Below, piece by piece: positions 1 to 6,160 of a DNA stretch of 6,160 nt (within the stretch, counting starts at the first letter, position 1; each line of letters starts with the position of its first letter). Origin of the DNA: a virus (taxonomy: Duplodnaviria > Heunggongvirae > Uroviricota > Caudoviricetes). The notes beneath the pieces are model-generated. The model saw only the letters and a program-made list of their open reading frames with translations, did not search any database and was not told the DNA's origin. The stretch covers positions 1-6,160 of IMG/VR virus record IMGVR_UViG_2648501392_000023. The stretch is one strand, 5' to 3'. The position numbers and the translations under genes were made by a program.

Positions 1-291
1 TTACCGCCGCAGTCGTTCCGGCTTCTTCCACTGGTAAGTATTTTTCGCGCTCTCCCTCCGTTGTTGAGAACGGCGACGGTATGCCAGCAACTCAAGGACT
101 CTGGTTCGTATGTTGCGCATATCCACGCCGTTAAGCTCAATACCGTCACGGCGCATCACCTCAGCCACCACACGCGCGTAATTTTCGGCTATCACGCTGT
201 CCGGCTGTGTAGCCTGTTCGTCAGGCTGCTGACTGATTCCGGTAATGCGGCGAATTATTTTTAGTAGATCAGTTTCAGTCATTCTCGTCAT
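1..291 (-). CDS. hypothetical small protein (96 aa) translationally coupled to the large terminase
   Basis: Complete ORF: ATG at 291..289 overlaps the terL TGA stop (290..288) in an ATGA arrangement; TAA stop at 3..1. No family motif recognised; arginine-rich C-terminus. Confidence 0.5.
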   Translation of the reverse strand: MTRMTETDLLKIIRRITGISQQPDEQATQPDSVIAENYARVVAEVMRRDGIELNGVDMRNIRTRVLELLAYRRRSQQRRESAKNTYQWKKPERLRR

Positions 292-1949
292 ACCCCATCA
301 AACGCCGCAAGTCGCTCTTTGTGGCTGTCGCTCATATCAAATGCAAATTCCTCATGCTCTGCCTGGAATGTGCCAAACGCCATCAGCGCCGCAACGCTCG
401 GGTCTATCTTGTTGGATGATTTTTTCTTGTTCGGCTTGATATTGGCGTTCGCGTCACTCTGCATCACAACATTACTCATTGACCAGGCCAGCACCGGATC
501 ACCACGATGCACAATCACCTTCCGGTTAACAAAAACTTCGAACGATTTCGCCGCCGGACTGAAACGAAGGTATGTTTGCGGGAACGGCTCCACCTCAAAT
601 CCTGCCCCCTGTAGCTGCGTCCTCAGGTGCGTGGCGTTCCATGTATCGAAGCCCACCAGCCTGATATTGAAATTCTCTGCATCCGCCATGATGTCATCAC
701 GGATACGGTCATAATCAATGCAGTCACCAGGTGTTGTGCGTATCCAGCCCGCCTTTACCCACTGGCGATAGATGGCGCGGTTTTTATTGGCGGGGTTCTG
801 TAGCTGAAATTCCGGCAGATAGTGACGGGAAATCAGCATAATCTTTTTACCGACCGGAAAGGCATAGCACACGCTGGAAATATCGCTGGTTGATGATAAG
901 TCCAGCCCCGCGTAGCACTCCTGCCCGTATAAATCCGCCTCCGCGAACGTTCCGGCGCACTCCGCCCATGCACCGTTACCCATCCACGGCGTAGCCCCCT
1001 GACACCAGATATTGAATCGCTTGGTGAGCATTTCCACCCACTGCGACGGAATACCCCGCGCTTTCTGGATGGTTGAGGCCAGTTTTTCACGATCGACGGA
1101 AACATCGATATTTGGATTCGCCTTTATCCACATCGCCGGATCGTCAACCTCGCTTTCATCATCCAGCTCGTAAATCAGAACGAACATGGATTCGTTCATC
1201 TCTTCACCATCCAGTATCTGACAGCAATAGTCATAGTGTTGTTTACAGGCTGAAACAACGTTGCTCCCCGATGTGGTGATGGCAAATAACAGCCCCTCCG
1301 GACGCGCCCCCATCCCCAGCTCAAGTGCGGAATAAACCCCGTTGTCTGGGTGCAGGTGATATTCATCCACAATGGCAAGACTCGGGTTTGTCCCCTCAAT
1401 GGTTGCCGCTTTTGCTGCCAGTGGCTTTAACAGGCTGTTGGTTTTCGGGTGTATCACCTTGTGCGCCTGAATATTTACCCGCTTTCGTAACGGTCGGGAT
1501 AAAAGGCACATCTGACGCGCATCATCAAACACGATCCGCGCCTGATCACGACTCACGGCGGCGGTGTAAATATCCTGCTGCCCGTTTTCCATAACCAGAA
1601 ACCAGTTAGCCAGGATAGCGGCGACCGTGGATTTGGCATTTTTTCGCGGTACTTCAATGAATGCGCTGGTGTATTTGCGCCGTCCGGTGGCCTTAACCTT
1701 AAAGCCCAGGATGCAGGCAAAGGCGAACTGCTGCCACGGCTCCAGTTCAATGGGACTACCGCGCATTGCGCCTTTTACGTGCGGACACACCCGGGAAAAG
1801 GCAATAAACCGCTCCACGACCTCCGGATCGAACGTGTAAAGGGAGTTTTCAAGGTCAGAAAAATACCGTTTAACGGCCTGTTTCAGTCGTTTACAGGCCG
1901 TAATTTTGCCGTTTTTTACGCCTTCTGCGTACTCATGCCAGGCGGTCAA
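288..1949 (-). CDS. terL: terminase large subunit (Terminase_1-like ATPase/nuclease), 553 aa
   Basis: Deviant Walker A (VPRKNAKST), Walker B (LAIVDEYH), C-terminal nuclease-like acidic motifs (GLDLSSTSD, VGFDTW). Most upstream in-frame start is TTG at 1949..1947, preceded by GAGGA; the first internal ATG is about 60 codons in, so a non-ATG start is likely. Overlaps the terS 3' end by 17 nt. Confidence 0.9.
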   Translation of the reverse strand: MTAWHEYAEGVKNGKITACKRLKQAVKRYFSDLENSLYTFDPEVVERFIAFSRVCPHVKGAMRGSPIELEPWQQFAFACILGFKVKATGRRKYTSAFIEVPRKNAKSTVAAILANWFLVMENGQQDIYTAAVSRDQARIVFDDARQMCLLSRPLRKRVNIQAHKVIHPKTNSLLKPLAAKAATIEGTNPSLAIVDEYHLHPDNGVYSALELGMGARPEGLLFAITTSGSNVVSACKQHYDYCCQILDGEEMNESMFVLIYELDDESEVDDPAMWIKANPNIDVSVDREKLASTIQKARGIPSQWVEMLTKRFNIWCQGATPWMGNGAWAECAGTFAEADLYGQECYAGLDLSSTSDISSVCYAFPVGKKIMLISRHYLPEFQLQNPANKNRAIYRQWVKAGWIRTTPGDCIDYDRIRDDIMADAENFNIRLVGFDTWNATHLRTQLQGAGFEVEPFPQTYLRFSPAAKSFEVFVNRKVIVHRGDPVLAWSMSNVVMQSDANANIKPNKKKSSNKIDPSVAALMAFGTFQAEHEEFAFDMSDSHKERLAAFDGV

Positions 1950-2289
1950 GTTCGTCCTCTTCCTCTGTTTCCGGTGGATTTCTGCGACGGCTTACCGGGT
2001 CAAAACCCAGCAAAGAAGCCATTTTGATCATTATTCTTTCTGCGTCAGCCTTTGCGCTCAGTGCGGGGTTTCTGCTCTCGCTGCCCTGACTGTTAACAAT
2101 GCTGAACCCGCGCGTCGCAAGGTCTTCGACGGCTTTGCGGTATATGGAGTAGTTAACACAATACAGTTCCAGATTGCTCCAGTCGGCGGGGGTAAGGTCT
2201 TCCCGCCCGGAAAGCTGGCGCGATTTTTCCTTCCACTGCCTGACCGCGATTTCATCCAGGTAAGCGGGGGCTTTTGGTGGTCTTGCCAT
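1933..2289 (-). CDS. terS: terminase small subunit, P27-family-like, 118 aa
   Basis: ATG at 2289..2287 gives MARPPKAPAYLDE...; the N-terminal RPPK motif and central LELYCVNYSIY segment resemble P27-type small terminases. TGA stop at 1935..1933. Sits immediately upstream of terL. The ORF-track extension to 2430 is not supported. Confidence 0.8.
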   Translation of the reverse strand: MARPPKAPAYLDEIAVRQWKEKSRQLSGREDLTPADWSNLELYCVNYSIYRKAVEDLATRGFSIVNSQGSESRNPALSAKADAERIMIKMASLLGFDPVSRRRNPPETEEEDELDRLA

Positions 2290-2340
2290 GTTCTTTTTTC
2301 GCCCAATTATTTTCAAAAAAATTACCGTGCACAAAAATTT

Positions 2341-2400
2341 GAGGGGGCGGTCGGTGTCCGGCAGGGACGGTTTCGTCCTGAAAACCACCCCCACCCCCTC
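2341..2400. other. GC-rich imperfect palindrome in the HNH-terS intergenic region; candidate cos (cosN-like) site or strong stem-loop
   Basis: GAGGGGG (2341..2347) and CCCCCTC (2394..2400) form an outer inverted repeat around an inner hairpin GGACG-GTTT-CGTCC (2365..2378). It lies about 50 to 100 bp upstream of terS and downstream of HNH, where HK97-type cos sites are found. Confidence 0.3.
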
Positions 2401-2408
2401 TGACGGCC

Positions 2409-2594
2409 TCACCAGCGATTGCGAAAACATTCCATGACCTCGCGGTCACGGTCGGTTAATCGCTTCGCTGTGGTGCGTTTTGTGCGCCCTGTCCTGTTGG
2501 CTTTGTGCTCTGTCTCCTGTGTCTTCCATGTGTCACGCTGCCTTATCAGTCCACGTATCAGCCTGGTTTGCTCCTGTTCAGTCATCATCGCCAT
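2409..2594 (-). CDS. possible small basic protein (58-61 aa) overlapping the HNH stop; may be non-coding
   Basis: Three in-frame ATGs (2594, 2588, 2585) give MAMMTEQEQTRLIRGLIRQRDTWKTQETEHKANRTGRTKRTTAKRLTDRDREVMECFRNRW; the start overlaps the HNH TGA. The region is strongly purine-rich on the coding strand and could instead be packaging-site DNA. Confidence 0.2.
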   Translation of the reverse strand: MAMMTEQEQTRLIRGLIRQRDTWKTQETEHKANRTGRTKRTTAKRLTDRDREVMECFRNRW

Positions 2595-3018
2595 ACATCC
2601 AGTCGTTACGGTGTGCCGCCCGTTCTTCCTGCTCGCGATACATGCCCGCTTTACGGTTTGCTTTCGTGGCTGGATCTTCCCGTGTCGTCTTACGGTTGTG
2701 GCACGTCTGGCACAATGCCTGGTGATTCCACTCAGGCCAGAAGAGAACATCACCGCCGCCATTGATGGGAATGATGTGATCCACCACAAGAGCTGGCGTA
2801 TAAATCCCCTTAGCCAGACAACGCACGCATAACGGGTTTTTGCTCAGGTACAGGGCGCGGTATTTGTCCCACTGTCGGGAATACCCGCGCGCGCGGCGGT
2901 GTCCCCGTCTGGCATCCTCTGCACGCCATGCAGCCCGCCTGTGCTCTTCACACTTGCCGGACTTCACGCGCTTATTACAGCCAGGCTCAGTGCATCGCCT
3001 TAATGGTTGCCACGGCAT
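2578..3018 (-). CDS. HNH endonuclease (terminase-associated), 146 aa
   Basis: N-terminal CxxC...C cysteine pairs plus DHIIPINGGG...NHQALCQTCHNRKT HNH signature. ATG at 3018..3016 overlaps the TGA of the upstream connector gene (ATGA). Directly precedes terS. Confidence 0.85.
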   Translation of the reverse strand: MPWQPLRRCTEPGCNKRVKSGKCEEHRRAAWRAEDARRGHRRARGYSRQWDKYRALYLSKNPLCVRCLAKGIYTPALVVDHIIPINGGGDVLFWPEWNHQALCQTCHNRKTTREDPATKANRKAGMYREQEERAAHRNDWMYGDDD

Positions 3019-3320
3019 CAGTACACCCCTACGTCACGATAAACTGACCAGAGCGCAGAAATAGCCATAGGCAGTTCCGAGTGCTCCACTGGTGAAACCG
3101 CTTCCCGGTTCTCGTACAGGAAAGCGATGTACATCAGGCAACCAACACGCATTGCCGGGGTAAATTCCAGCCCGTCTTCAAAACGTTTCCCGATATGCTT
3201 CTGGCAGGCTTCCAGCGCCGCATCGGTATACATTTTCAGAAGTTCGCCTTCACCGGATAAATCATCATCAAGTCGAAGATGTGCCCTGACTTCATCAGGT
3301 GTAATTCTGGCTTCACTCAT
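3018..3320 (-). CDS. gp6-like head-tail connector protein, about 100 aa
   Basis: ATG at 3320..3318 with upstream AGGGAGAAAAG RBS gives MSEARITPDEVRAHLRLDDD... and a later LYENREAV motif, matching the gp6-like connector family signature. The start overlaps the last codons of the portal gene by 8 nt. The ORF-track extension to 3407 is rejected. Confidence 0.75.
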   Translation of the reverse strand: MSEARITPDEVRAHLRLDDDLSGEGELLKMYTDAALEACQKHIGKRFEDGLEFTPAMRVGCLMYIAFLYENREAVSPVEHSELPMAISALWSVYRDVGVY

Positions 3321-4527
3321 CTTTTCTCCCTTTAATTTCCACAGTCTGTTTCCATGCCTGGCTGAACTCATCACCACCTTCACGCGGCGGCATACCCTCA
3401 CGCTCACGGGCTTCGTTCGGATTCATGATCCCGTTCTTAATCCCTTTCTCATACGTGGCATAACGTTCGGTGGGTGTGGCGCGTAATAAATCGGCTGAAT
3501 CAAACTCAACCAGATAACGGGTACCAGGTACGGGAGAAGCCACCAGCAAAGCGGCCTTGATTTGCTGTTCGAAGTTCGCCAGCCACGGGCGCATTGTCAT
3601 GGTCAGAAACGCGCGGCTTGCCTCGCTGAAATTGCTGTAGGTGCTGTTGCTGTATTCCTGCAGAAAAATAGGCGATACGTTGAACATGCGGGCGATGTCT
3701 TCAATGGAGAAGCGACGGGAGGCCAGCCATTCCGCATCCTGGTTACTCATTCCCAGTTGCCTGTAATCCATGCCCCCTTCAAGGATTGGCGTTTTTCCGG
3801 CATTTTTCGCCCCCTTGTAGCGTTCCAGAGCATCCAATGCCTGTTTACCTTTCACGCCGTCCAGCCATTCGCCTGACGTGATAATCCCTGCCGCCATCAT
3901 GCCATCTTTCATAATGCTGGCTCCGTGGCGCTGTTGAGCAAGGCCAAGCCCAAGTGCCTCACGGCAAATCGTGACGGGGGAGCGCCCCAGAAAGCCATCA
4001 TCCGAGGCATAGCGGAGATGCAGAACTTCTTCCTGTAAATACGTGCGCACCGTTCCTGTATAGGGTTCGGTGATGGTATAGCGGTATTTGTGTGCGCCTG
4101 TGCGTTCCGGTACAACACACCCCGGCGCATAAGGATGAAGTGATTTTGGCTGCCCGTCCTGCCCCCACTCAATAACCGCATAGGCGTTACCGTTCAGCAG
4201 GCAGTGACGCATCATTGTGCGTTTAAACTGGTAAGGTGTCTGGCACGAATTAGGCTGCTCATTCAGCAGAATATCTACCGGGTGACTGTCCAGCCATTCC
4301 CGCGCCTCCCTGCCCTTGTCATTACGTACCAGATACAGATAACACGGCATCGTGGCCACCGCCTCAGCGATGACAGAAACCGCATTCATCACTGCAGGCA
4401 ATGATTCAGCCGTCCCGGCAGAAACATATTCTCCGGATCCGGTATTCGGTACGCCGGACAGCGCCAGAAAATCATCAATGGACAGGTTACGCTGCTCGCT
4501 TTTTTTACGACTAAAAGGCCACCACAT
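3313..4527 (-). CDS. portal protein, HK97 family, 404 aa
   Basis: ATG at 4527..4525 (MWWPFSRKK...), one nt after the protease stop. Conserved portal core: ...NQDAEWLASRRFSIEDIARMFNVSPIFLQEYSNSTYSNFSEASRAFLTMTMRPWL. The ORF-track start at 4617 is a TTG extension overlapping the protease gene. Confidence 0.9.
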   Translation of the reverse strand: MWWPFSRKKSEQRNLSIDDFLALSGVPNTGSGEYVSAGTAESLPAVMNAVSVIAEAVATMPCYLYLVRNDKGREAREWLDSHPVDILLNEQPNSCQTPYQFKRTMMRHCLLNGNAYAVIEWGQDGQPKSLHPYAPGCVVPERTGAHKYRYTITEPYTGTVRTYLQEEVLHLRYASDDGFLGRSPVTICREALGLGLAQQRHGASIMKDGMMAAGIITSGEWLDGVKGKQALDALERYKGAKNAGKTPILEGGMDYRQLGMSNQDAEWLASRRFSIEDIARMFNVSPIFLQEYSNSTYSNFSEASRAFLTMTMRPWLANFEQQIKAALLVASPVPGTRYLVEFDSADLLRATPTERYATYEKGIKNGIMNPNEAREREGMPPREGGDEFSQAWKQTVEIKGRKDE

Positions 4528-4528
4528 A

Positions 4529-5089
4529 TCACAACCCCGCCAGCTCAGACCAGCGATGACGATTATTTCCTGTCGGGCATAATTCAGGGTGCTGTGCAAA
4601 CAACGAACGGTGGGCAATCTCCACGCCAGATTCTGGATAAGCAGGCATCGACGTTATTGTGATTTCACGGAGTTCAGCGGCGGTTACGGTACGCAAATAC
4701 GGTTTTTGCGCGATACTCCACTCCTCGCATAATGCGCGAAAACCAAAGCTCATTCCTGTAATGTCGCCACGCTCCACCAGCGTAAGCACATCTTTTCCAA
4801 GCTGGGTATCCGGCGGTGTCAGTTCAAAACGTAACCCGGTGTTATCCTCAGTCAGTACCAGAGTGCCGGATTTGGTGCGCCCCAGCAGTTGGGTATAGTC
4901 ATGCTCATACAGGCAGCGCACATCATTACCCGCCGCCAGATAGTCAGCAAAAGCCCCCGGCGTGAACTGTTCGCGGAATTCGTCCCAGATAATTTCTGAA
5001 AGGCTGTTCCAGCGAACGGCATACCCCACCAGCTTTTTATTGCTGGCGGTCAGTTCAGATGTGCGGATTTCAAAATCGGTGTTTTTCAT
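4529..5089 (-). CDS. prohead maturation protease, HK97 family (S78-like), 186 aa
   Basis: ATG at 5089..5087 with GGAG 7 nt upstream. VGYAVRWNS...PGAF, a His-containing LYEHD segment and the GMSFGF serine motif are typical of HK97 prohead proteases. Confidence 0.85.
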   Translation of the reverse strand: MKNTDFEIRTSELTASNKKLVGYAVRWNSLSEIIWDEFREQFTPGAFADYLAAGNDVRCLYEHDYTQLLGRTKSGTLVLTEDNTGLRFELTPPDTQLGKDVLTLVERGDITGMSFGFRALCEEWSIAQKPYLRTVTAAELREITITSMPAYPESGVEIAHRSLFAQHPELCPTGNNRHRWSELAGL

Positions 5090-5100
5090 CGGTGTACTCC

Positions 5101-5131
5101 ATAAAGCTGAAAAAGGAGGCCGCAGCCTCCT
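5101..5131 (-). terminator. candidate intrinsic terminator/attenuator between the capsid and protease genes
   Basis: On the minus-strand RNA: AGGAGGC-UGCG-GCCUCCU (7-bp GC-rich stem, 4-nt loop) followed by UUUUCAGCUUU, starting about 12 nt after the capsid TAG stop. Confidence 0.3.
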
Positions 5132-5143
5132 CCTTACTCATGA

Positions 5144-6061
5144 CTAGCCAGCTTTCATTTCCAGAATTTTGATGGCGTTTGAATCCACCACACCACCGCC
5201 CAGATATTTATCCGTGTGGACCTTGTAGAATCCGGGTTCAGTAATGTTGTCCGGTCGGGTGCGAATCCCTGTTACATGATCAACGATGAAATAACCACGA
5301 CTGAAATCGCCAACCGCTAGCGGTGCTTTTCCTGCGCCGATGTCCGGCATGGACTCCAGGCAGTAAACAGGACGACCAAGCAACATATCCGGCGCACCTT
5401 CTTTAAGGCTGTCGCGCCAGATATAATCGCCGTTCTCATTTTTCAGCTTCTGTAGTGTCCCTGCCGTGCCCGAGTTCATCACCCAGACGGCATTTTTGCG
5501 GTATTTCGCTTTCAGCTTGTAGAGAATGTCGATCAGTTCGTCCGCTGTAATGGCGGTTCCACTTGCCGCTACCATTTTTTCAATGGTGCCAAAAGCGCGG
5601 GTTTTGTCACTGGTCGCCGCACGGGTGTAAGCCATGAAGCCTTTCGGCTTGCCGTTACCGTTGCCATTAACAAAATCATCCTCTTCGGTGCTGGCGAACG
5701 TGTCGGCAATTTCGGAGGATAACCAGCCCAGAATATCCACCTCTGAAAAATCTAGGATTTCCTGCGTGGTTTTCGGGTAGGCGTAGATCGGGTTCAGCTT
5801 GATGGTTACGCGTTCAATTTTCGGGGTGTTGGTTTCACTGCGTGCGCTGCCTTCTGTGCCTCGTCCTACAGTTGCGCCGCCAGTGGAAACCAGTTTCTGA
5901 AACTCATTTGATTTTGCAGTCTTCACGGTCGCGATCACGCGCATAACACTGTCATCCTGTAGCTGGCGCATGACTTCGCGATCAAGCTCAGGAATTACGG
6001 TATATCCGCCATCCCTGCCGCTGTCAGTGCTGGTGGACAGAGATCGCACATCTCCGGTTAC
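5144..6061 (-). pseudogene. major capsid protein, HK97 fold; 5' end interrupted by an IS insertion (about 305 codons retained)
   Basis: Conserved capsid-domain segments: GGYTVIPELDREVMRQLQDDSVMRVIATVKT near the N-terminus of the retained part and LLGRPVY...GDFSRGYFIVDHVTGIRTRP...YLGGGVVDSNAIKIL at the C-terminus. TAG stop at 5146..5144. The frame runs without an ATG into the IS terminal repeat at 6062; the first 31 residues of ORF-track 5144..6154 are IS-derived. Confidence 0.75.
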
Positions 6062-6160
6062 TGAACCGCCCCGGGAATCCTGGAGACTAAACTTCCTGAG
6101 AAAGAGGTAAACAGGATGACTAAAAATACTCGTTTTTCCCCTGAAGTCCGTCAACGGGCA
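6062..6160 (+). mobile_element. IS3-family insertion sequence (IS629/IS1203-like), left terminal inverted repeat and start of orfA; continues beyond the window
   Basis: Terminus starts TGAACCGCCCCGGGAATCCTGGAGAC (typical IS3-family TG... end), followed by AAGAGG RBS and orfA ATG. Family assignment is from recalled IS629-type sequence, not a search. Confidence 0.75.
6116..6160 (+). CDS. IS3-family transposase OrfA, N-terminal 15 codons (partial, runs off the window)
   Basis: ATG at 6116 translates to MTKNTRFSPEVRQRA, matching the recalled N-terminus of IS629/IS1203-type OrfA; RBS AAGAGG 7 nt upstream. Confidence 0.75.
   Translation, partial: MTKNTRFSPEVRQRA

What the first reader, a model, noticed from the sequence alone, without database searches (positions are those of the whole stretch)
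1..6061. Non-canonical order of the head and packaging genes
Read 5' to 3' on the minus strand, the order is capsid, protease, portal, gp6-like connector, HNH, (cos-like region), terS, terL, 96-aa unknown. HK97-type phages and most tailed phages have HNH-cos-terS-terL-portal-protease-capsid-connector. Here the portal-protease-capsid block is reversed internally and sits upstream of HNH-terS-terL, yet the junctions are translationally coupled, so it is an evolved arrangement and not a recent scramble. No tail, lysis or scaffold gene is in the window. A self-contained capsid-plus-packaging module of this kind is what capsid-forming phage satellites (cf-PICI-like elements that borrow only helper-phage tails) carry; I cannot confirm from memory that their gene order matches this one.
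Basis: partly seen in the sequence, partly recalled or inferred. Interest (0 to 1): 0.7.

Follow-up and report, generated by a model that had tools for sequence, protein, structure and literature searches.

The report
Known capsid-forming phage satellite, IS-disrupted copy
The odd gene order is real, but it is the published, conserved layout of capsid-forming phage satellites (cf-PICIs) of E. coli, which build their own small heads and borrow only tails from helper phages; this copy has its capsid gene cut by an insertion sequence.

Summary
On the minus strand the window encodes capsid, S78 protease, portal, gp6-like connector, HNH, a small ORF, a non-coding gap, terS, terL and a 93/96-aa unknown.

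Window 1-6061 is 100% identical to an E. coli chromosome. There the block is the right half of a 15,152-bp island flanked by 80-nt att repeats at the 3' end of fis. The island carries int, alpA, an icd-like gene, DUF4222 and a primase, and no tail or lysis genes.

All nine proteins are 56-93% identical, in the same order, to EcCIEDL933, the prototype cf-PICI. The capsid matches its cryo-EM structure 9GYI. Alqurainy et al. state that this gene order is conserved in proteobacterial cf-PICIs. The finding is therefore already known.

Three points are new:
- Window 6062-6160 is the end of an IS3-family element inserted after capsid codon 84, so this copy is probably dead.
- This lineage lacks the head-completion gene that EcCIEDL933 needs, yet it is under purifying selection.
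- The 93-aa protein has no recognisable fold.

The parts
1..282 (-). Conserved 93-aa protein of unknown function, the last gene of the module. An alternative ATG at 291 gives 96 aa.
   Evidence: PHROG 1561, unknown function, E 1e-53. No Pfam or PDB sequence hit. It is 75% identical to the gene after terL in EcCIEDL933. All 120 listed homologues are 'hypothetical'. It is absent from bona fide phage records. The AF2 model is all-helical, pLDDT 76, and Foldseek against the PDB gives a best E of 0.55.
288..1949 (-). Large terminase TerL (553 aa, TTG start)
   Evidence: TerL_ATPase plus TerL_nuclease. PHROG 9, E 1.9e-180. 93% identical to EcCIEDL933 TerL. At most 37% identical to TerL of full-size phages.
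1933..2289 (-). Small terminase TerS, P27 family (118 aa). It overlaps the terL start by 17 nt.
   Evidence: Terminase_4, E 4.2e-23. PGAP start in the identical record. 88% identical to EcCIEDL933 TerS.
2290..2408 (-). Non-coding gap upstream of terS, the probable cos region. The motif GGGGTGGGGGNNGTTTTCAGGAC (2375-2397, minus strand) is invariant in five elements.
   Evidence: Alignment of five elements. The linear 16.5-kb record of the induced satellite-like 'phage' vB_KppS-Ant ends exactly after ...TTTTCAGGAC and restarts 22 nt before terS. cf-PICI DNA has cohesive ends. The assignment as cos is an inference.
2409..2594 (-). 61-aa ORF between HNH and terS. By gene count it is the orthologue of EcCIEDL933 'hypothetical gene 1792'.
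   Evidence: Annotated by PGAP. 75% identical to the EcCIEDL933 ORF. No Pfam hit. Mutating 1792 severely reduced transfer but did not abolish it. dN/dS is not below 1 on very few changes, so the constraint may be on the DNA rather than the protein.
2578..3018 (-). HNH endonuclease, the packaging cofactor of HK97-type terminases (146 aa)
   Evidence: PF01844, E 8.8e-10. PHROG 144, E 3.6e-45. 84% identical to the EcCIEDL933 HNH.
3018..3320 (-). gp6-like head-tail connector (100 aa). It is the only head-tail joining gene here.
   Evidence: PF05135. PHROG 40 'head-tail adaptor Ad1', E 5.8e-29. 56% identical to the EcCIEDL933 connector. EcCIEDL933 and other relatives have a Phage_HCP gene between portal and connector; it is absent here.
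3313..4527 (-). Portal protein (404 aa)
   Evidence: PF04860, E 1.9e-92. 81% identical to the EcCIEDL933 portal.
4529..5089 (-). HK97-family prohead serine protease (186 aa)
   Evidence: PF04586, E 7e-46. 60% identical to the EcCIEDL933 protease.
5110..5135 (-). Terminator-like hairpin with a U-run, in the 54-nt capsid-protease spacer
   Evidence: RNA fold -23.1 kcal/mol, z -2.4. Sequence. A role as an attenuator that sets the capsid:protease ratio is an inference.
5144..6061 (-). Major capsid protein, HK97 fold: codons 85-389 only (3' 918 nt). Truncated at 6061/6062.
   Evidence: PF05065, E 3.6e-71. The best solved-structure match is 9GYI, the EcCIEDL933 cf-PICI capsid: E 2.8e-116 for the fragment and 7.9e-155 for the intact copy. 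The intact gene in L001 is 389 aa, and the insertion lies after codon 84.
6062..6160 (+). Left end of an IS3-family insertion sequence (terminal repeat at 6062, orfA ATG at 6116), inserted in the capsid gene
   Evidence: 99/99 identical to the left end of a 1,310-bp IS3-family element in L001. Thousands of copies occur on E. coli chromosomes and plasmids, annotated 'IS3 family transposase'. The capsid/IS junction is absent from all 5,426 complete E. coli genomes and from two contig collections.

Best explanation
The window is the head-and-packaging module of a capsid-forming phage-inducible chromosomal island (cf-PICI), a close relative of the prototype EcCIEDL933.

How it works, by homology to what was shown experimentally for EcCIEDL933:
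1. A helper prophage induces the island through alpA. The island excises and replicates.
2. Its own HK97-fold capsid protein assembles small T=4 procapsids on its own portal. The N-terminal delta domain of the capsid protein acts as the scaffold.
3. The S78 protease removes the delta domain.
4. The island's TerS-TerL-HNH complex cuts island concatemers at a cos site between HNH and terS. It fills only the small heads.
5. The gp6-like connector caps the portal.
6. Helper-phage tails are then attached, giving an infective particle.

The 'non-canonical' order is the family's conserved layout. HNH-cos-terS-terL is arranged as in HK97. The morphogenesis block sits upstream of HNH, in the order capsid-protease-portal-connector.

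This copy has two particular features:
- An IS3-family element interrupts the capsid gene after codon 84. It separates the delta domain from the shell domain, so this copy most likely cannot build capsids or transfer on its own.
- Its lineage lacks the head-completion (Phage_HCP) gene that EcCIEDL933 has and requires.

Shown here: gene content, order, homology, island boundaries, the IS junction and the HCP absence. Inferred: every functional step, the cos position and the inactivation.
For: - Gene identities.
- Context: window 1-6061 is 100% identical to NZ_CP148357.1, where it lies in a 15,152-bp island between 80-nt direct repeats at the fis 3' end. The island has integrase, AlpA, an Icd-like protein, DUF4222 and a D5-type primase, and no tail or lysis genes.
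- Homology: collinear with EcCIEDL933 at 56-93% protein identity in all nine genes.
- Capsid: matches the cf-PICI capsid structure 9GYI at E 7.9e-155. That structure is T=4, 47.5 nm, with the delta domain cleaved at residue 93.
- Published gene order and definition.
- Published genetics: every packaging gene of EcCIEDL933 is needed for transfer, and helper tail genes are needed.
- Separation from phages: the nearest full-size-phage TerL is at most 37% identical.
- IS junction.
- cos lead.
Against: - The window itself contains none of the integrase, alpA or primase genes. Context is taken from a 100%-identical copy in another strain, and the source genome's own context is unknown.
- One of the eight packaging components listed for cf-PICIs, the adaptor or head-completion protein, is absent.
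- No experiment exists for this lineage.
- Only one IS end is in the window, so a rearrangement rather than a simple insertion cannot be excluded.
Confidence: 0.93

Rival explanations
1. It is a decayed HK97-like prophage remnant that lost its tail, lysis and lysogeny genes by deletion and scrambled the head genes. It is not a satellite.
For: All proteins belong to HK97-type phage families. PGAP annotates them as phage proteins. This copy does carry an IS insertion, a sign of decay.
Against: - The island has clean 80-nt att repeats and a PICI-type int-alpA-icd-DUF4222-primase left half.
- The same order recurs in hundreds of genomes, on different backbones and at different integration sites.
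- Genes are intact and under purifying selection, with dN/dS 0.06-0.15.
- The nearest full-size-phage TerL is at most 37% identical.
- The homologous EcCIEDL933 is experimentally a functional satellite.
Confidence: 0.03
2. It is an autonomous small phage, or a gene-transfer-agent-like particle producer, that does not depend on a helper.
For: Related 10.7-16.5 kb sequences are deposited as 'phages' (vB_KppS-Ant, Pasteurella Pmp7/Pmp8). The next-best solved capsid relatives are the two capsid entries 6TB9 and 6TBA; 6TB9 is the Rhodobacter capsulatus gene-transfer-agent (RcGTA) capsid Rcc01687.
Against: - There is no tail, tail-fibre, holin or endolysin gene anywhere in the 15.15-kb island.
- The 765-aa ORF that vB_KppS-Ant calls 'tape measure' has no Pfam support.
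- EcCIEDL933 transfer is abolished by helper tail mutations.
- The window's capsid fragment matches 6TB9 (Rcc01687) far more weakly (E 9.7e-55) than 9GYI (2.8e-116; 7.9e-155 for the intact copy).
Confidence: 0.02
3. The lineage is a functional cf-PICI variant that takes the head-completion protein as well as the tail from its helper, or does without one. The dependence on the helper would then be wider than 'tails only'.
For: - There is no Phage_HCP homologue in the whole island, and a clean indel of about 335 nt relative to EcCIEDL933.
- About 150 of 5,426 complete E. coli genomes share the portal-connector-HNH arrangement at 96-100% identity.
- It occurs on different backbones and att sites.
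- Its genes, including the connector, show dN/dS 0.06-0.15.
- A relative identical elsewhere (dS about 0.04-0.13) carries HCP plus a very different connector (dS about 1). This indicates cassette exchange at the tail interface.
- One copy is embedded in an HK97-like prophage that encodes its own head-closure protein.
Against: - In EcCIEDL933 every gene of the module, which by gene count includes the HCP gene, is required for transfer. The lineage could therefore simply be transfer-defective.
- Purifying selection over modest divergence does not prove present-day mobility.
- SatelliteFinder already reports many cfPICIs with 10 or 9 of 11 core components, so incomplete sets are known, if unexplained.
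Confidence: 0.3

Closest known systems
EcCIEDL933, the prototype capsid-forming PICI of E. coli O157:H7 EDL933 (Alqurainy et al., bioRxiv 10.1101/2022.09.08.507074; He et al., bioRxiv 10.1101/2025.02.11.637232; capsid structure PDB 9GYI)
   Same: - Same gene order: capsid-protease-portal-connector-HNH-small ORF-gap-terS-terL-93-aa ORF.
- Protein identities: capsid 63%, protease 60%, portal 81%, connector 56%, HNH 84%, small ORF 75%, terS 88%, terL 93%, 93-aa protein 75%.
- About 15 kb, with int-alpA-icd-DUF4222-primase, and no tail or lysis genes.
   Different: - No Phage_HCP (head closure, or 'adaptor') gene between portal and connector.
- Different integrase and att site: the fis 3' end rather than between roxA and phoQ.
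- Different primase type: D5_N/Pox_D5 versus DUF927.
- The capsid gene of this copy is cut by an IS.
HK97-like temperate siphophages and prophages (for example the prophage flanking the island in L006)
   Same: - Same protein families: HK97-fold capsid with delta domain, S78 protease, portal, gp6 connector, P27-family TerS, TerL and HNH packaging cofactor.
- HNH-cos-terS-terL adjacency is the same on the circular map.
   Different: - Phage order is terS-terL-portal-protease-capsid-connector-head closure-gp10-gp17-tail.
- Phages are about 40 kb with tail and lysis modules.
- TerL identity is at most 37%.
- The satellite capsid is T=4 rather than T=7 in the homologue.
Classical Gram-negative PICIs (EcCICFT073 type)
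   Same: The left half is shared (int, alpA, pri-rep), as is helper-dependent induction through alpA.
   Different: Classical PICIs use helper capsids and the helper TerL. They carry no portal, connector or terL genes, and SatelliteFinder treats portal and connector as forbidden for PICI.
Helper-embedded PICIs (PMC10111431)
   Same: A 96.6%-identical packaging module occurs in an island inserted inside a prophage late gene, terL, in L006.
   Different: The copy matching the window sits at fis, not in a prophage. The published HE-PICIs searched here are classical PICIs in lambda-type late genes.

Membership tests
cf-PICI (criteria of He et al. 2025 Methods; SatelliteFinder cfPICI model) | Island size of about 10-18 kb | tested here: met
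   15,152 bp between 80-nt perfect direct repeats in L001, the copy 100% identical to window 1-6061. Not testable in the window's own genome.
cf-PICI | Integrase plus regulation (alpA) plus replication (primase) modules | tested here: met
   L001 has Phage_integrase, Phage_AlpA, D5_N/Pox_D5 primase, an Icd-like protein and DUF4222. These lie outside the window.
cf-PICI | Own capsid, protease, portal, connector, HNH, terS and terL | tested here: met
   All seven are present with strong Pfam or PHROG hits, in the published order. The capsid gene of this copy is truncated by an IS.
cf-PICI | Head-tail adaptor (head completion or closure protein, Phage_HCP) | tested here: not met
   Present in EcCIEDL933, vB_KppS-Ant and CREC-2. 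Absent from the window and from the whole island (tblastn best E 0.8). SatelliteFinder accepts 9-11 of 11 core components (Types A-C; 459 of 969 elements have 10). By that operational definition this is a Type B cfPICI.
cf-PICI | No lysis genes and no tail module | tested here: met
   None in the window. None in the island, which lies between fis and yhdJ.
cf-PICI | Conserved proteobacterial order: capsid-protease-portal-head connectors, then hnh-terS-terL | tested here: met
cf-PICI | Capsid and TerL form a clade apart from phages | tested here: met
   The capsid's best solved relative is the cf-PICI capsid 9GYI. TerL reaches 70% or more only in satellite-like records and at most 37% in full-size phages. 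No tree was built.
cf-PICI | Helper-induced production of small island-encoded capsids that package only island DNA and need helper tails | not testable with these tools
   Shown for EcCIEDL933 and inferred here. The IS in the capsid gene predicts loss of function in this copy.
Autonomous HK97-like prophage | Contiguous tail and lysis modules, genome of about 40 kb, order terS-terL-portal-protease-capsid | tested here: not met
   A true prophage with the canonical order is seen in L006 for contrast.
Classical (non-capsid-forming) PICI | No portal, connector or terL; relies on helper capsid proteins | tested here: not met
   Portal, connector and terL are present. These are forbidden components of the PICI model.

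The most novel reading that the evidence does not exclude
The window's lineage is a widespread, selectively maintained cf-PICI subtype. Its tail-interface cassette is a connector alone, with no head-completion protein. It is found in about 150 of 5,426 complete E. coli genomes, at several att sites and on several backbones.

If it is mobile, it must do one of two things. Either it recruits the helper phage's head-completion protein in addition to the tail, or it seals and docks its capsids without one. Either case would modify the 'steals only tails' rule. It would also bear on how free tail-less capsids hold their DNA and choose tails.
Probability: 0.3. Interest if true: 0.45.

Novelty: already known. 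Interest (0 to 1): 0.2.

Why it matters
cf-PICIs are an important recently described route of gene transfer. They make their own capsids, release tail-less DNA-filled heads, and can combine with tails from phages of different species.

This window adds nothing to the gene-order question, because that order is the family's published signature. Two things have modest value. First, it shows that a reader working from raw sequence can recognise such a module. Second, it documents an IS-inactivated copy.

The one point that could matter is the lineage-wide absence of the head-completion gene. That gene is essential in the prototype and belongs to the cassette reported to set tail specificity. If these islands are mobile, the dependence on the helper is broader or different from the one described.

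Tried and rejected
- **Function of the 93-aa protein.** There is no Pfam or PDB sequence hit. 962 homologues were found, and the 120 listed are all 'hypothetical'. The AF2 model is helical with pLDDT 76. Foldseek against the PDB gives no significant match, best E 0.55. The function remains unknown. I rejected the idea that it replaces the missing head-completion protein, because EcCIEDL933 has both.
- **Source genome and the other side of the IS.** Exact-protein look-ups of three possible truncated-capsid products found nothing. The 39-nt capsid/IS junction is absent from 5,426 complete E. coli genomes, from genome contigs and from metagenome contigs.
- **Hidden HCP gene.** tblastn of two HCP proteins against the whole island gave no hit.
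- **Plus-strand ORFs, RNA families, tRNAs.** Nothing was found.
- **Defence genes.** PADLOC on the island's accessory ORFs in L001 gave nothing.
- **Origin of the connector.** A phage search found only satellite-like records above 45% identity, and SfI, SfII and phiP27 at 34-40%. This does not identify the tail type.
- **Promoter and terminator consensus scan.** No enrichment, and it missed the post-capsid hairpin.
- **First attempt to fetch EDL933.** It failed on a length limit.

Full report

Yes. The eight large ORFs all lie on the minus strand. Pfam and PHROGs assign them as follows:
- Phage_capsid, 5144-6061 within the ORF 5144-6154
- Peptidase_S78 prohead protease, 4529-5089
- Phage_portal, 3313-4527
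- gp6-like head-tail connector, 3018-3320
- HNH endonuclease, 2578-3018
- P27-family small terminase, 1933-2289
- large terminase with ATPase and nuclease domains, 288-1949
- a 93/96-aa protein that matches only a PHROG of unknown function, 1-282/291

PGAP annotation of an identical sequence adds a 61-aa ORF at 2409-2594 between HNH and terS. Plus-strand ORFs have no Pfam hit, and there is no Rfam family or tRNA. So the order capsid, protease, portal, connector, HNH, (gap), terS, terL, unknown is correct. No tail, lysis or separate scaffold gene is present.

The claim of translational coupling is only partly right. The following junctions are coupled or nearly so:
- protease to portal: 1-nt spacer
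- portal to connector: 8-nt overlap
- connector to HNH: 1-nt overlap (TGATG)
- HNH to small ORF: 17-nt overlap
- terS to terL: 17-nt overlap
- terL to unknown: 4-nt overlap or 5-nt spacer

Capsid and protease, however, are separated by 54 nt holding a GC-rich hairpin followed by a U-run. A 119-nt non-coding gap also precedes terS.

**2. What surrounds it?**

Window 1-6061 is 100% identical to the chromosome of E. coli Z1323HEC0393 and 99.5-100% identical to many other complete genomes. In that chromosome (locus L001) the block is the right half of an island bounded by a perfect 80-nt direct repeat that includes the 3' end of fis. The start-to-start spacing of the repeats is 15,152 bp.

The rest of the island encodes the following:
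- a tyrosine integrase
- an AlpA regulator
- an Icd-like protein
- a DUF4222 protein
- a D5-type primase
- a few unknown accessory ORFs

It has no tail, holin or endolysin gene. The flanking genes are ordinary chromosome (fis on one side, yhdJ on the other).

**3. What family?**

The intact capsid protein of L001 matches PDB 9GYI at E 7.9e-155. 9GYI is the cryo-EM capsid of the cf-PICI EcCIEDL933. I located EcCIEDL933 in the EDL933 chromosome and compared gene by gene. The order is the same, and the identities are:

| Protein | Identity |
|---|---|
| capsid | 63% |
| protease | 60% |
| portal | 81% |
| connector | 56% |
| HNH | 84% |
| small ORF | 75% |
| TerS | 88% |
| TerL | 93% |
| 93-aa protein | 75% |

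[quoted passage not shown] He et al. use the same list as their search criterion, with a size of 10-18 kb and absence of lysis and tail genes. The 'non-canonical order' is therefore the published signature of this family.

A true HK97-like prophage seen in passing (L006) shows the canonical order for contrast: terS-terL-portal-protease-capsid-connector-head closure-gp10-gp17-tail.

**4. Is the refutation condition met?**

No. In 50,697 phage records, DNA-level matches are limited to three records. TerL relatives above 60% identity are:
- vB_KppS-Ant, 16.5 kb, an 'induced prophage'
- Pasteurella Pmp7 and Pmp8, 10.7 and 15.3 kb
- one 106-kb Klebsiella record that carries satellite-like genes at one end

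Full-size phages reach at most 37%. vB_KppS-Ant has int, primase, capsid, protease, portal, HCP, connector and HNH in the cf-PICI order, so it is itself a satellite deposited as a phage.

**5. How does it work?**

The mechanism is taken from experiments on the homologue. In EcCIEDL933, mutating any gene of the module abolishes island transfer without affecting the helper. The exception is the small hypothetical gene 1792, whose mutation severely reduces transfer. Helper capsid mutants still transfer the island, whereas helper tail mutants do not. The capsid is T=4 and 47.5 nm, is made only of the island's HK97-fold protein after removal of its N-terminal about 92 residues, and fits 15.5 kb. 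Packaged DNA has cohesive ends, and tail-less filled capsids are released and can dock to tails from different phages.

By homology, the window's genes should do the same. The capsid delta domain scaffolds assembly on the portal, and the S78 protease matures the shell. TerS, TerL and HNH cut at cos and fill the head, the gp6-like connector caps the portal, and a helper tail is attached.

The cos site is probably in the 119-nt gap at 2290-2408. A 23-nt motif, GGGGTGGGGGNNGTTTTCAGGAC (2375-2397), is invariant in five elements. The linear vB_KppS-Ant record ends exactly after it and restarts 22 nt before terS. This is a lead, not a mapped end.

On the packaged linear map the genome would read terS-terL-...-int-...-capsid-protease-portal-connector-HNH. 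The HNH/cos/terS/terL arrangement is thus as in HK97, and only the position and internal order of the morphogenesis block differ.

**6. What is particular to this copy?**

(a) Bases 6062-6160 are not capsid. They are 99/99 identical to the left end of a 1,310-bp IS3-family element present elsewhere in L001 and in thousands of E. coli loci. From memory, the size and end sequence fit IS629/IS1203, but I did not verify this. The insertion lies after capsid codon 84 of 389, inside the delta domain. The junction is not found in any of 5,426 complete E. coli genomes or in two contig collections. The delta domain is needed for HK97-type assembly (established knowledge), so this copy most likely cannot form capsids. 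That conclusion is an inference.

(b) The lineage lacks the Phage_HCP head-completion gene. That gene sits between portal and connector in EcCIEDL933, vB_KppS-Ant and the close relative in strain CREC-2. The difference is a clean indel of about 335 nt, and no HCP homologue exists anywhere in the island.

About 150 complete E. coli genomes share the HCP-less arrangement at 96-100% identity, against about 380 with the two-gene arrangement. It occurs with different integrases, replication modules and sites, including one island embedded in the terL gene of an HK97-like prophage.

Between two HCP-less copies, all seven structural and packaging genes are intact. For the five with non-synonymous changes, dN/dS is 0.06-0.15 (connector 0.15); HNH and terS show none.

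Against the HCP-containing CREC-2 island, every gene is nearly identical (dS 0.04-0.14) except the connector (dS about 1, 56% protein identity). The tail-interface cassette has therefore been exchanged as a unit, as He et al. describe for adaptor and connector genes. SatelliteFinder already records that 459 of 969 cfPICIs have 10 of 11 core components. Such 'Type B' elements are thus known, although I found no published discussion of a missing adaptor.

(c) The 93-aa protein is conserved in cf-PICIs and is absent from genuine phage records. It is predicted to be helical and has no structural relative. Its function stays unknown.

**7. Verdict**

The thing is already known: the head-and-packaging module of an E. 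coli cf-PICI, here in a copy whose capsid gene is broken by an IS.

Interest is low (0.2). The most novel reading still open is that the HCP-less sublineage is functional. In that case it would take more than the tail from its helper, or it would dock without a head-completion protein (probability about 0.3, moderate interest if true).

Noticed in passing
window 6062-6160 (+): The end of an IS3-family insertion sequence (terminal repeat at 6062, orfA ATG at 6116) is inserted after codon 84 of the capsid gene. It is 99/99 identical to a 1,310-bp IS in L001 31068-32377 that splits acrS. This junction is absent from all complete E. coli genomes searched.
   Followed up: yes
window 3313-3320 (portal/connector junction), compared with L005 15103-15441: The Phage_HCP head-completion gene present in EcCIEDL933 and other cf-PICIs is missing from this lineage. 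The difference is a clean indel of about 335 nt. About 150 complete genomes share this state, and the genes are under purifying selection.
   Followed up: partly
L006 8336-25074 (NZ_AP042630.1): A 96.6%-identical HCP-less packaging module sits in a cf-PICI integrated inside the terL gene of an HK97-like prophage (terL fragments at 8336-9079 and 24046-25074). This looks like a helper-embedded capsid-forming satellite. No 93-aa ORF is annotated after its terL.
   Followed up: partly
window 2409-2594 (-): The 61-aa ORF between HNH and terS corresponds, by gene count, to EcCIEDL933 gene 1792, whose mutation reduces but does not abolish transfer. Between close relatives it shows 6 non-synonymous changes against 1 synonymous, so the constraint may be on the DNA (cos) rather than on a protein.
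   Followed up: partly
window 5110-5135 (-): A terminator-like hairpin with a U-run lies in the 54-nt spacer after the capsid gene (-23.1 kcal/mol, z -2.4). It may be an attenuator that keeps capsid expression above that of the downstream genes.
   Followed up: partly
L002 (LR881103.1), H37/H38 (OR544138.1, OR544139.1), L003 (PQ569648.1): Records deposited as phages (vB_KppS-Ant 16.5 kb, Pasteurella Pmp7 and Pmp8 at 10.7 and 15.3 kb) look like cf-PICI-type satellites. The 106.5-kb 'Klebsiella phage P12620-1' carries cf-PICI-like genes in its last 16 kb, possibly from a chimeric assembly. The 765-aa 'tape measure' of vB_KppS-Ant has no Pfam support.
   Followed up: partly
L001 14283-15000 and 14657-14700 / 14961-15004: About 720 bp of island DNA between the att repeat and the 93-aa gene has no annotated gene. 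It contains a 44-nt imperfect direct repeat (82% identity) whose second copy ends at window base 4.
   Followed up: no
L001 23364-23552: A cluster of GGTGAACAGT-containing repeats lies just downstream of the primase gene. It is probably the island's replication origin (iterons).
   Followed up: no
L001 21573-23171 and 27222-27959: Four accessory ORFs of the island (254, 169, 86 and 245 aa) have no Pfam or PADLOC match. They occupy positions where cf-PICIs are said to carry immunity genes.
   Followed up: partly
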